From: Promethearchaeota archaeon
Lineage (GTDB): Archaea; Asgardarchaeota; Lokiarchaeia; Sigyniarchaeales; SOKP01
NCBI GenBank assembly: GCA_048940925.1
Contig: JBHLOC010000002.1
Coordinates: forward strand, 192,001-256,000
Direction of reading: 5' to 3'
DNA length: 64,000 nt
Shown: positions 30,148-31,322 of the stretch, in pieces
Layout: each line of letters opens with the position of its first letter
Position numbering within the stretch: the first letter of the stretch is position 1
Program-made: the position numbers and the translations under genes
The notes under the pieces: generated by a model
Database searches by the model: none
The model's input: the letters and a program-made list of their open reading frames with translations, nothing else
What the model was told of the DNA's origin: nothing

Positions 30148-30339
30148 TTATAGATTAATTTCGATTTTTATAGTCTTAATGTTTTCAGGTACTTTTTTAG
30201 TAGAATTCAAATAACCTAAAATAATGTTCGCAAGCATCTCCTGCATAAAATCTTTTAATGGGATTTTTTGTTCGTTAACAATTAAAGTTGCATCAACCAT
30301 ATTTAACTCTAAATCGCTTAATTTTTTAAAATTTTTCAT
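30148..30339 (-). CDS. Small protein resembling the C-terminal extension domain of archaeal MobB
   Basis: VNEQKIPLKDFMQEMLANIILG pattern. Confidence 0.55.
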   Translation of the reverse strand: MKNFKKLSDLELNMVDATLIVNEQKIPLKDFMQEMLANIILGYLNSTKKVPENIKTIKIEINL

Positions 30340-30439: not shown

Positions 30440-30904
30440 TTGATTAATTCAATGCCAAATGAATTTTTACTCTCTAATTCAGAGAATGAATTTTTAACCA
30501 AATCTCGCGTAGCTAGGATTGCAACAATAGACGCTGCTAGTAATTTTCCGCATATAATACCAATCTGCTATAGTTTTGATGGCAACAATTTTTTTACATC
30601 ACTACGTAATACTAGTAAGCGCTTGCAAAATATTAATAAAGGAAGTAAAGTTTCATTGTTATTTGATGAATATGTTGAGAATAATGGAAAATGGATAACA
30701 CTTCGAGGAATTCTTATCAACGTGACAATTTCTATTCTAAATTACCACGATCATTCAGAACAATTCAAGCAAGGATGGAAACAACTAATTGAAAAATATC
30801 ATCAATATAAAACATGGGCACAAGAAGATTTAAGTCCAACAGATTCAAATACACGACGTATTATGAAAATGACTCCAATCCATAAAATATCATGGGGATT
30901 TTAA
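30440..30904 (+). CDS. Pyridoxamine 5'-phosphate oxidase family (PPOX-class, possibly F420-binding)
   Basis: FL..SRVARIATID...PHIIPICY, KRLQNI....KVSLLFDEY. Confidence 0.8.
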   Translation: MINSMPNEFLLSNSENEFLTKSRVARIATIDAASNFPHIIPICYSFDGNNFFTSLRNTSKRLQNINKGSKVSLLFDEYVENNGKWITLRGILINVTISILNYHDHSEQFKQGWKQLIEKYHQYKTWAQEDLSPTDSNTRRIMKMTPIHKISWGF

Positions 30905-30948
30905 AAAAAAAGAAATAAAAAACATACTTTGAAAAAAATTAAAGATAA

Positions 30949-31017
30949 AACCAAAACCCTTGCAGGGGTTGTCCTTTTACAACTATCTTTTCTTTGTAAA
31001 AATCATTCAATTTGGTT
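30949..31017 (-). promoter_or_regulatory. SECIS-like element in 3' UTR
   Basis: RNA: AACCAA-AUUGA-AUGAU-UUUUACAA-(AGAAAAGAUAG)-UUGUAAAA-GGAC-AACCC(CUGCAA)GGGUU-UUGGUU; AUGA/GA core, 8-bp upper stem, A-rich loop, side hairpin. Confidence 0.8.
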
Positions 31018-31026
31018 ATAATCGAT

Positions 31027-31263
31027 TTATGTAACCTTTATGGTACTTATTATAAAATTTAAATTCTCGAACAAGCACCCTTCTTTTTGTGATAAAGAAC
31101 CAAATATCATACAAGGTGAAGATCATGAGGTTCCTCCCTCGAAACTCAACATTGTTATTACTATTGCTACTATGAATGTCACGATGATTGCTCCAACTAA
31201 AATCCACATGATAATTCTTTTAATTTTTCTTCTTTTCAAGTGTTTTATCTCAGAATCACTCAT
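31027..31263 (-). CDS. Candidate 78-aa single-TM selenoprotein (UGA at codon 47, 31123-31125)
   Basis: MSDSEIKHLKRRKIKRIIMWILVGAIIVTFIVAIVITMLSFEGGTS-U-SSPCMIFGSLSQKEGCLFENLNFIISTIKVT*; SECIS-like element ~10 nt after the TAA. Confidence 0.7.
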
Positions 31264-31322
31264 TGTAACTAACGAGAATTAAAAATCAAATAAAAAAGAT
31301 TTCTATTCTTCTAAACACTTTG

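What the first reader, a model, noticed from the sequence alone, without database searches (positions are those of the whole stretch)
30949..31263. Candidate novel membrane selenoprotein with eukaryote-like SECIS
Seen: an ORF missed by the track encodes a basic N-terminus, one TM helix, then EGGTS-UGA-SSPC...C and a TAA. About 10 nt downstream is a hairpin with the AUGA...GA non-Watson-Crick core, an 8-bp stem, an A-rich loop, a closing helix and an extra side hairpin. Established: Lokiarchaeia decode UGA as Sec using 3'-UTR SECIS elements resembling eukaryotic ones, and the archaeal selenoproteins I know are mainly soluble redox enzymes. Inference: a 78-aa UxxxC selenoprotein with Sec probably extracytoplasmic, loosely like eukaryotic single-pass SELENOK/S in design. 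It may be co-transcribed with two upstream membrane genes. Alternative: GGAGG precedes the ATGA, so two coupled mini-ORFs are possible.
Basis: partly seen in the sequence, partly recalled or inferred. Interest (0 to 1): 0.92.

Follow-up and report, generated by a model that had tools for sequence, protein, structure and literature searches.

The report
Small membrane selenoprotein of Lokiarchaeia
A tiny gene that annotation cuts short at a UGA very probably encodes a 78-residue, one-helix membrane protein carrying selenocysteine. It belongs to a family found in about 80 related Loki-type Asgard genomes and absent from the archaeal selenoprotein lists I could read.

Summary

**The gene.** It lies on the minus strand:
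- ATG at 31263
- in-frame UGA, codon 47, at 31125-31123
- TAA at 31029-31027
- a lokiSECIS at 31016-30950

**SECIS test.** A covariance model built only from SECIS elements of known selenoprotein genes of this genome (HdrA/VhuD, Prx-like) scores the element 74.7 bits (E 4e-19). The next hit in the 64-kb window scores 17 bits. The reverse model, built only from this family's elements, finds those known genes.

**Sec machinery.** The genome has tRNA-Sec(UCA), SepSecS, a PSTK-like gene, an EFSec-like gene and two UGA-containing selD genes.

**The family.**
- I collected 46 distinct homologues. They come mostly from two genera of one taxonomic family (44/53 and 31/42 genomes).
- All 46 keep the UGA at the same place, after a basic N-terminus, one TM helix and a Gly-rich linker.
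- 41 of the 46 have a Cys within four residues of the UGA (UxC, UxxxC, CxU or UC).
- All 46 have the SECIS 44-121 nt downstream of the UGA.
- No clear Cys-for-Sec form exists among 1.84 billion representative proteins.
- Public databases hold only 43-58-aa truncations or forms with TGA read as W.

**Limits.** The function is unknown. I infer an N-in/C-out protein with a Sec/Cys site at the outer membrane face. It resembles SELENOK/S in design but is not a member of that family. This scan has already found and followed up the same family on other genomes.

The parts
31288..31297 (-). T/A-rich TATA-like box about 29 nt before the ATG. It suggests the gene has its own promoter and a leaderless or very short-leader mRNA.
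   Evidence: Read from the sequence. The upstream 40 nt are conserved in the four closest homologues. This is inference only; no promoter test was run.
31126..31263 (-). Codons 1-46: acidic then basic N-terminal segment (MSDSEIKHLKRRKIKR), a 25-residue TM helix, and the short linker EGGTS.
   Evidence: AF2 gives a helix at residues 3-42. N-terminal net charge is +5 and the linker -1. Public databases hold exactly this 46-aa truncation as a hypothetical protein.
31123..31125 (-). In-frame UGA, codon 47, read as selenocysteine.
   Evidence: It is the only invariant column in the family alignment. All 46 distinct homologues collected have TGA here, and almost every profile match reads '1 TGA'.
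31030..31122 (-). Codons 48-78: SSPC, which gives a U-x-x-x-C motif, then a weakly conserved amphipathic tail with a second Cys.
   Evidence: A Cys partner lies within four residues in 41 of 46 members. Frame 0 shows 61 synonymous to 143 non-synonymous changes, against 38:181 and 21:178 in the other frames. The frame-openness test over 23 representatives gives combined p 0.0014. In this gene's own subgroup the tail evolves almost neutrally.
31027..31029 (-). TAA stop codon, 10 nt before SECIS helix I.
   Evidence: In 33 of the 46 members the in-frame TAA/TAG ends 1-20 nt before the SECIS core, and in several others a second UGA just before the core probably ends the frame.
30950..31016 (-). 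lokiSECIS (Asgard type I eukaryote-like SECIS). Components: helix I 31016-31011/30955-30950; k-turn C-stem 31010-31008/30971-30969; AUGA 31006-31003; helix II 31002-30994/30982-30974; 11-nt A-rich loop 30993-30983; GA 30973-30972; side hairpin 30968-30956.
   Evidence: Covariation across 24 homologues. Model R1, built from the family alone, scores it 89 bits and finds the HdrA/VhuD and Prx-like SECIS elements in the genome. Model R2, built from those known genes alone, scores it 74.7 bits, E 4e-19. It meets every feature of the published lokiSECIS.
30932..30938 (-). Run of seven T directly after the SECIS; more T runs follow to 30903. This is a likely archaeal transcription stop.
   Evidence: Read from the sequence; inference only.
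30151..30300 (-). Conserved 50-aa protein of unknown function. It is the same-strand downstream neighbour in genus g1 only. In this window a convergent PNPOx-like gene (30440-30904, +) lies between it and the selenoprotein gene.
   Evidence: Present in 22 of 24 loci and in 25 of 26 further g1 loci, but in none of the loci fetched from g12 and other genera. Mean column identity 77%. No Pfam, PDB or fold match. Weak match to the C-terminus of the MobB/FeS fusion NF011062, E 4.8e-5.

Best explanation
This is a real, unannotated selenoprotein gene.

How it is made. The mRNA carries a UGA at codon 47 and, 119 nt further on in the 3' UTR, the same kink-turn SECIS that this lineage uses for HdrA/VhuD and the Prx-like protein. 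I infer that EFSec with Sec-tRNA(UCA) is recruited by that element, so the ribosome inserts selenocysteine and runs on to the TAA. The product is a 78-residue protein.

What the protein looks like. It is a single-pass membrane protein:
- a strongly basic N-terminus, inferred to stay in the cytoplasm;
- one TM helix;
- a short acidic or Gly-rich flexible linker, inferred to place Sec and a nearby Cys (U-x-x-x-C here, mostly GGG-U-x-C in the family) at the outer face of the membrane;
- a variable amphipathic tail that probably lies on the membrane.

What is shown by computation: the ORF, the SECIS identity, the Sec machinery, the conservation of the UGA, the Cys partner and the charge asymmetry.

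What is inferred: actual Sec insertion, the topology and the chemistry.

Most likely function (my odds about 35%). The Sec/Cys pair cycles between selenol/thiol and selenenylsulfide on a flexible arm, acting as a membrane-tethered extracytoplasmic redox site. This works like the C-terminal GCUG arm of thioredoxin reductase and may serve a partner not yet identified. The next most likely function (about 20-25%) is a high-affinity binding or carrier site for a soft metal, metalloid or chalcogen.

The confidence given below is for 'genuine selenoprotein gene decoded through this SECIS', not for the function.
For: ORF: the ORF, UGA and TAA are as described.

SECIS:
- 90% of cells pair and 13 of 22 pairs are compensatory; 0 of 500 shuffles reach this.
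- R1, built only from the family, gives 8 genome hits at E <= 4e-6. One is the gene's own element. Five lie directly behind known selenoprotein genes: three HdrA-VhuD pairs, one HdrA and one Prx-like gene. The other two lie behind other ORFs with an in-frame UGA.
- R2, built only from those five known elements, scores the candidate 74.7 bits, E 4e-19. The next hit in the window scores 17 bits.
- The element matches the published lokiSECIS: AUGA, a 9-bp stem, an 11-nt loop that starts A-rich and ends AG, then GA (PMC4989117).

Machinery:
- tRNA-SeC with anticodon tca, next to SepSecS at 484.6 bits.
- An EFSec-like gene on the same contig, 240.3 bits.
- A PSTK-like gene and two selD genes with an in-frame TGA.
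- SepSecS is present in 130 of 135 genomes of the taxonomic family.

Family:
- The profile matches 44/53 genomes of genus g1 and 31/42 of g12, almost all reading '1 TGA'.
- Among 46 distinct members: UxC 27, UxxxC 11, CxU 2, UC 1, U only 5. The N-terminus averages +2.9 and the linker -1.1.
- 25 of 26 further loci searched for a family member have the SECIS.

Coding past the UGA.

Independent contigs reproduce the sequence.
Against: - There is no experimental evidence of Sec insertion, and no RNA or proteomic data could be examined.
- The tail after the UGA is poorly conserved between subfamilies. In this gene's own subgroup it shows no third-position bias.
- A few members stop one or two codons after the UGA, so most of the tail is dispensable.
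- No Cys-for-Sec homologue was found. This removes the usual Sec/Cys-pair argument.
- Topology rests on the positive-inside rule alone.
- Function has no support from gene context. The neighbours differ between genera: a 50-aa protein in g1 and a TrmB-like regulator in g12.
- AF2 confidence around the Sec is low.
Confidence: 0.87

Rival explanations
1. The protein is a real selenoprotein, but the Sec/Cys site is a ligand rather than a redox catalyst. In this reading it is a membrane-tethered outer-face binding or hand-over site for a soft metal, a metalloid, or sulfur/selenium species, working like the Cys pairs of MerT/MerP-type proteins.
For: - The Gly-rich flexible linker with a Sec and a Cys one to three residues apart is as good a chelator as a redox pair.
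- Five members have Sec alone with no Cys, which fits binding better than selenenylsulfide cycling.
- There is a weak sub-threshold resemblance to the FeoB-associated Cys-rich membrane protein PF12669: E 0.81 for this gene, 0.14 at best in the family.
Against: No transporter, metal-resistance or sulfur-metabolism gene is a conserved neighbour across the family. The PF12669 match is far below its cut-off.
Confidence: 0.22
2. The UGA/SECIS pair acts mainly as a selenium sensor. The short ORF would be a regulatory leader whose read-through or termination, depending on Sec-tRNA supply, tunes expression of the gene downstream. The peptide itself would matter little.
For: - The tail is poorly conserved and near neutral in this subgroup.
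- A same-strand gene follows the SECIS in most loci: a 50-aa protein in g1 and a TrmB-like regulator in g12.
Against: - The N-terminal motif, the TM helix, the Gly-rich linker and the Cys partner are conserved. A mere sensor would not need them.
- The downstream gene differs between genera.
- In this window and four other loci a convergent gene separates the ORF from the downstream gene.
- T runs follow the SECIS.
Confidence: 0.05
3. The UGA is an ordinary stop. The product is the 46-residue membrane peptide, and the kink-turn element behind it has some other role, such as L7Ae binding, mRNA stability or termination.
For: - Gene callers and NCBI annotate 43-58-aa products.
- A few members have a stop one or two codons after the UGA.
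- The single-sequence fold is unremarkable.
Against: - By reciprocal covariance models, the element is the same RNA that follows the HdrA/VhuD and Prx-like selenoprotein genes. Every strong genome hit follows an ORF with an in-frame UGA.
- None of the 46 members uses TAA or TAG at this column, although TAA/TAG are the usual stops in this AT-rich genome.
- A Cys lies within four residues in 41 of 46 members, against an overall Cys frequency of 1.5%.
- The frame stays open longer than in shuffles, combined p 0.0014.
Confidence: 0.05
4. There are two translationally coupled mini-ORFs. GGAGG acts as a Shine-Dalgarno site, and the AUG of AUGA restarts a second peptide in the -1 frame.
For: - In this gene the -1 frame starting at the AUG of AUGA is open for 36 codons, and GGAGG precedes it.
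- 45 of 46 members have A, U or G before the UGA.
Against: - The -1 frame stops after two codons (MT*) in four of the five g12 members shown, and after 2-8 codons in 17 of the 46 members.
- Its changes are mostly non-synonymous, 21:178.
- The GGAGG-like words are the Gly codons themselves.
- This reading does not explain a SECIS behind every copy.
Confidence: 0.02

Closest known systems
Lokiarchaeota selenoprotein genes with a lokiSECIS (HdrA-VhuD, VhuU, PrxL; Mariotti et al. 2016, PMC4989117), also called the Asgard type I eSECIS-like element (Huang et al. 2024, PMC11227280)
   Same: - The recoding apparatus is the same: an in-frame UGA, a 3'-UTR element close to the stop, AUGA, a 9-bp stem, an 11-nt loop that starts A-rich and ends AG, then GA.
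- Reciprocal covariance models tie the element to the genome's own HdrA/VhuD and Prx-like elements.
   Different: - The protein is unrelated to any of the 7 Asgard or 11 archaeal selenoprotein families listed in the papers.
- It is tiny and membrane-anchored, has no enzyme fold, and has no Cys-containing homologues. Homology-based searches therefore could not find it.
Eukaryotic SELENOK / SELENOS (single-pass ER membrane selenoproteins; description from my own knowledge)
   Same: - Same design: a small protein with one N-terminal TM helix and a flexible Gly-rich segment leading to a Sec near the C-terminus.
- A few family members end U-G or U-P-G, close to the Sec position in SELENOK/S.
- A eukaryote-like SECIS lies in the 3' UTR.
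   Different: - No member matches any SelK/SelS Pfam family, even at E <= 10.
- The charge distribution predicts the opposite orientation: Sec outside the cytoplasm rather than facing the cytosol.
- Most members have a Cys partner and a further tail of 7-33 residues.
- It works like them at most in architecture and is not a member.
C-terminal Gly-Cys-Sec-Gly redox arm of mammalian thioredoxin reductase (from my own knowledge)
   Same: A Sec/Cys pair lies next to Gly residues on a flexible extension. That pair could form a selenenylsulfide and carry electrons between a partner and a substrate.
   Different: - Here the arm is anchored to a membrane helix rather than to a flavoenzyme.
- The spacing is U-x-C or U-x-x-x-C, not an adjacent C-U.
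- No partner enzyme is identified.
FeoB-associated Cys-rich membrane protein (Pfam PF12669)
   Same: A very small one-helix membrane protein followed by a Gly/Cys-rich tail.
   Different: The match is only sub-threshold (E 0.81 for this gene, best 0.14; cut-off 27 bits). PF12669 is defined as Cys-rich, not Sec-containing, and no conserved transporter neighbour was found here.

Membership tests
lokiSECIS / Asgard type I eSECIS-like element | AUGA immediately 5' of the main stem and GA (or AA) immediately 3' of it (kink-turn core) | tested here: met
   AUGA is at 31006-31003 and GA at 30973-30972. UGA and the 3' G-A are invariant in 24 homologues. The definition is from PMC4989117 and PMC11227280.
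lokiSECIS / Asgard type I eSECIS-like element | 9-bp stem and 11-nt apical loop; the first five loop nucleotides mostly A, the last one G and usually preceded by A | tested here: met
   Helix II has 8 Watson-Crick pairs plus a closing U-G. The loop AGAAAAGAUAG is 11 nt, has A at 4 of its first 5 places and ends AG. Six of the nine stem pairs show compensatory changes.
lokiSECIS / Asgard type I eSECIS-like element | Lies shortly 3' of the coding sequence of a gene with an in-frame UGA | tested here: met
   The core lies 20 nt after the TAA and 119 nt after the UGA. Across the family the distance from the UGA is 44-121 nt.
lokiSECIS / Asgard type I eSECIS-like element | Scores as the same RNA as the SECIS elements of accepted selenoprotein genes | tested here: met
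   R2, built from five HdrA/VhuD/Prx-like elements only, gives 74.7 bits, E 4e-19. R1, built from the family only, gives 53.8-66.4 bits on those five. The Rfam SECIS models give no hit. Mariotti et al. likewise reported that earlier archaeal, bacterial and eukaryotic SECIS tools miss Loki elements.
Selenoprotein gene (general criteria) | Sec-decoding machinery in the genome | tested here: met
   tRNA-SeC(tca); SepSecS; a PSTK-like gene at 139 bits, below the curated cut-off; an EFSec-like gene at 240.3 bits against a cut-off of 242.25 for the bacterial-type model; two selD genes with an in-frame TGA.
Selenoprotein gene (general criteria) | UGA conserved in homologues, with conservation continuing past it | tested here: met
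   The UGA is the only invariant column. 41 of 46 members have a Cys partner. Frame 0 has the highest synonymous share and is open longer than in shuffles. Tail conservation is weak between subfamilies.
Selenoprotein gene (general criteria) | Homologues with Cys aligned to the Sec | tested here: not met
   None among 400 genomes of the phylum, the 5.8-billion-protein set or the 1.84 billion representatives. The only possible case is one borderline 65-aa protein, P0058 (E 6e-5). This feature usually holds but is not obligatory.
Selenoprotein gene (general criteria) | Selenium shown in the protein | not testable with these tools
   Needs 75Se labelling or mass spectrometry.
SELENOK / SELENOS family | Sequence membership (Pfam SelK/SelS models) | tested here: not met
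   No such family appears among the hits of any of 22 members at E <= 10.
SELENOK / SELENOS family | Single N-terminal TM helix followed by a Gly-rich segment carrying Sec | tested here: met
   AF2 gives a helix at 3-42 and then disorder. 65% of the four residues before the Sec are Gly across the family. This gene's own linker, EGGTS, is less Gly-rich.
SELENOK / SELENOS family | Sec two or three residues from the C-terminus, facing the cytosol | tested here: not met
   Here 31 residues follow the Sec; only about 3 of 46 members end U-G, U-P-G or U-C. The charge bias predicts N-in/C-out. The orientation is predicted, not measured.
FeoB-associated Cys-rich membrane protein (PF12669) | Pfam score above the gathering cut-off | tested here: not met
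   10.4 bits against a cut-off of 27.

The most novel reading that the evidence does not exclude
An Asgard lineage invented a Sec-obligate 'selenol on a stalk': a one-helix membrane anchor that displays selenocysteine on the outside of the cell. It could be used for redox or chalcogen exchange with the environment or with syntrophic partners. It would also be an archaeal precedent, or even a forerunner, for the SELENOK/S-type membrane selenoproteins of eukaryotes.
Probability: 0.1. Interest if true: 0.9.

Novelty: new variant of a known kind. Interest (0 to 1): 0.72.

Why it matters
**A gap in the published lists.**
- Archaeal selenoproteomes are described as small and made of soluble redox enzymes. 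A May 2026 review counts 11 families and the 2024 Asgard survey counts 7.
- Both lists rest largely on homology to known or Cys-containing proteins. This family has no Cys homologues and is cut at the UGA by every gene caller, so it escaped them.
- Yet it is one of the commonest UGA-containing genes in two Lokiarchaeial genera. I found no membrane-anchored family in the published archaeal lists I could read.

**What it shows.**
- SECIS-first searches with lineage-specific models uncover hidden selenoproteins. The same model also flagged two more candidates in this genome.
- It gives a compact natural UGA-plus-lokiSECIS cassette, with 44-121 nt spacing, for testing how Asgard archaea decode Sec without SBP2.

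Tried and rejected
**RNA searches**
- Rfam, at gathering cut-offs and at E <= 10, gives no SECIS hit on the element. This is uninformative: Mariotti et al. also reported that earlier SECIS models miss Loki elements.
- The single-sequence MFE fold has z -0.55. It is not significant alone and is superseded by the comparative analysis.

**Protein family searches**
- Pfam and NCBIfam give nothing above cut-off for the protein. The sub-threshold hits are generic TM matches.
It was not re-sent.

**Gene context as a guide to function**
- The 50-aa downstream neighbour is conserved only in genus g1. It has no Pfam, PDB-sequence, atlas or Foldseek match.
- In g12 the downstream neighbour is a TrmB-like regulator.
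- The upstream neighbours vary. No functional inference was drawn from any of these.

**Other**
- Expression: no RNA holder is listed among the public runs.
- Coupled mini-ORFs: rejected.
- SECIS serving another gene: no other upstream minus-strand ORF with a plausible in-frame UGA lies within 2.5 kb.
- The R1 model does not hit the two selD loci. This fits the published statement that SPS/selD genes use a different, type II form.
- No complex prediction was run, because no binding claim is made.

Full report
**What is there.** The feature lies on the minus strand.
- An ATG at 31263 opens a frame whose first 46 codons encode an acidic-then-basic N-terminus (MSDSEIKHLKRRKIKR), a 25-residue hydrophobic helix and the linker EGGTS.
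- Codon 47 is UGA (31125-31123).
- The frame continues with SSPC and 27 more codons to TAA (31029-31027), giving 78 residues.
- Ten nucleotides later an RNA element begins (31016-30950).
- That element consists of helix I, a 3-bp stem, an A-A-U bulge, AUGA, a 9-pair helix II, the 11-nt loop AGAAAAGAUAG, GA, and a side hairpin before the closing strand of helix I.
- A run of seven T follows at 30938-30932.

**Is the RNA element real, and is it a SECIS?**
- On its own the fold is unremarkable (z -0.55), and Rfam finds nothing.
- Comparative evidence settles the question. A six-frame search of the taxonomic order found about two dozen homologous small ORFs, and every one is followed by the same element.
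- In the alignment of 24 elements, 90% of cells form standard pairs and 13 of 22 pairs carry compensatory changes. No shuffle out of 500 reaches this, and slid controls pair at 35-57%.
- Model R1, built only from these family elements, gives eight hits at E <= 4e-6 in the 4.8-Mb genome. One is its own element.
- Three hits lie behind HdrA-VhuD pairs full of in-frame UGAs. One lies behind another HdrA and one behind a Prx-like gene with GNW-U-SHC. Two lie behind other ORFs with in-frame UGAs.
- Model R2 was built only from the five HdrA/VhuD/Prx-like elements. It scores the candidate 74.7 bits, E 4e-19. The next hit in the 64-kb window scores 17 bits.
- The element also meets each published lokiSECIS feature: AUGA, a 9-bp stem, an 11-nt loop starting with A's and ending AG, then GA, close to the end of the CDS (PMC4989117). 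It fits the type I criteria of Huang et al. as well (PMC11227280).

**Can the organism decode Sec?** Yes.
- tRNA-SeC with anticodon tca sits next to SepSecS (484.6 bits).
- An EFSec-like gene lies about 4 kb away on the same contig (240.3 bits).
- A PSTK-like gene and two selD genes with in-frame TGA are present.
- SepSecS occurs in 130 of 135 genomes of the taxonomic family.

**The protein family.**
- A profile of 22 members searched over 400 genomes of the phylum matches 44 of 53 genomes of the window's genus and 31 of 42 of a second genus. A few matches fall in four further genera of the same family and almost none outside it. Nearly all matches read '1 TGA'.
- From the fetched loci I collected 46 distinct proteins. 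The Sec column is the only invariant one.
- The residues before the Sec are 65% Gly.
- The partner motifs are U-x-C (27 members), U-x-x-x-C (11, including this gene), C-x-U (2), U-C (1) and U alone (5).
- R1 finds the SECIS behind 25 of 26 further loci searched for a family member, 44-121 nt from the UGA.
- Public protein sets contain only 43-58-residue truncations named 'hypothetical protein', from Promethearchaeota/Lokiarchaeota-type MAGs. They also hold roughly 80-residue products with W at the Sec place, which are calls made under a TGA=Trp table.
- Among 1.84 billion representatives, only one borderline protein could be a Cys form (P0058, E 6e-5). The family is essentially Sec-only.
- No Pfam or NCBIfam model reaches its cut-off.

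**Is the frame translated past the UGA?**
- The SECIS argues that it is.
- A Cys lies within four residues in 41 of 46 members, and by my count from the motif table in 20 of 23 representatives whose spacers are under 60% identical. The overall Cys frequency is 1.5%.
- Frame 0 has 61 synonymous to 143 non-synonymous codon changes, against 38:181 and 21:178 in the other frames.
- The frame stays open to just before the SECIS more often than in shuffled spacers (combined p 0.0014 over 23 representatives, which are not fully independent).
- The tail is weakly constrained. In this gene's own subgroup the changes are spread evenly over codon positions. A few members stop one or two codons after the Sec. 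The functional core is therefore the anchor, the linker and the Sec(-Cys) site.
The -1 frame is open here for 36 codons, but it stops after two codons in four of the five g12 members shown and after at most eight codons in 17 of the 46 members. Its openness in some members is a by-product of hydrophobic codons in frame 0.

**The sequence itself is sound.** A contig from a run of a different study covers 30900-31245 with one difference, 31209 T>A, which changes M19 to L.

**How it probably works.**
- Shown: the items above.
- Inferred: EFSec with Sec-tRNA reads codon 47 under the direction of the 3'-UTR SECIS.
- Inferred: the basic N-terminus (family mean +2.9) stays inside and the acidic or Gly-rich linker (-1.1) goes outside.
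- AF2 predicts one long helix (residues 3-42), a disordered stretch around the Sec and a weak C-terminal helix.
- Sec and Cys would therefore sit on a flexible arm at the outer membrane face, followed by an amphipathic tail.
- I consider a selenol/selenenylsulfide redox arm the most likely chemistry (about 35%). A soft-metal or chalcogen binding site comes second (about 20-25%).
- Gene context does not help. The conserved downstream neighbour is a 50-aa protein of unknown fold in genus g1 and a TrmB-like regulator in g12, and the upstream genes vary.

**Comparison with what is known.**
- The recoding apparatus is that of the known Lokiarchaeial selenoprotein genes, and the SECIS qualifies as a member of that class.
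- The protein belongs to none of the families in the lists I could read: 7 Asgard families and 11 archaeal families. Full-text searches found no paper describing it.
- It resembles eukaryotic SELENOK/S in architecture. It fails their sequence models, has the opposite predicted orientation, and usually has a Cys partner and a tail. It is not a member.

**Earlier notes of this scan.**
- The scan flagged this same stretch twice, as first-reader notes only.
- On other genomes it followed up three members of the same family and reached the same conclusions. Those notes agree with mine but are not independent evidence.

**Verdict.**
- The gene is a genuine small membrane selenoprotein with a canonical lokiSECIS, previously unrecognised in the literature I could search. 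My confidence in this is about 0.87.
- It is widespread in one Lokiarchaeial family.
- Its function is still open.

Noticed in passing
G000 contig C63:88277-88613 (locus L018:1501-1837, + strand), outside the window: A second, different one-helix membrane ORF with C-K-R-UGA (CxxU) and a SECIS (R1 56.9 bits) whose 3' UGA probably ends the frame. Homologues occur in four other genomes of the genus: three with the TGA and one without a stop, which may be a Cys form.
   Followed up: partly
G000 contig C7:42926-43001 (- strand), outside the window: A SECIS hit (R1 44 bits) lies behind an ORF that reads ...VVHAD-UGA-UGA-ADV..., that is, two adjacent UGAs. First-reader notes of this scan call it a beta-grasp protein in an arsenic-resistance operon (e1-5590896, e1-5590905).
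   Followed up: no
window 30956-30971 (-) and the matching part of loci L049-L054: In this lineage the SECIS is a three-way junction. A 3-bp stem under the kink-turn and a conserved 3' side hairpin (ACCYUGCRAGGGUU-like, with two invariant C-G pairs) lie between the GA and helix I. Both are present in the HdrA/VhuD and Prx-like elements too. The passages of the papers I read describe only the core, stem and loop. Since no SBP2 is known in archaea, this hairpin is a candidate recognition site.
   Followed up: partly
window 30151-30300 (-): A 50-aa protein, highly conserved (77% mean column identity), with a confident beta-hairpin-plus-helix model (pLDDT 88). It has no Pfam, PDB or Foldseek match. 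It gives a weak hit to the C-terminal 45 residues of the MobB/FeS fusion NF011062 (E 4.8e-5).
   Followed up: partly
public protein sets (P0002-P0006, P0008, P0012, P0024, P0027, P0040, P0062, P0063): Full-length members of this family are already in public collections, but with W at the Sec place. Short contigs were apparently called under a TGA=Trp table, so read-through products hide as ordinary proteins.
   Followed up: yes
loci L082, L079, L080: Motif variants in the family. One member has U-P-C-U, with two UGAs two codons apart. Two members have C-G-U-G-G.
   Followed up: no
G000 contig C72:3553-6078 (loci L005, L006): Two neighbouring selD genes each carry an in-frame TGA. Neither locus is hit by the family SECIS model, consistent with the distinct type II SECIS reported for SPS/selD.
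   Followed up: no
window 31209: T>A in contigs of two other runs, which changes Met19 to Leu at the start of the TM helix. Close homologues also vary between M and L at this position.
   Followed up: yes
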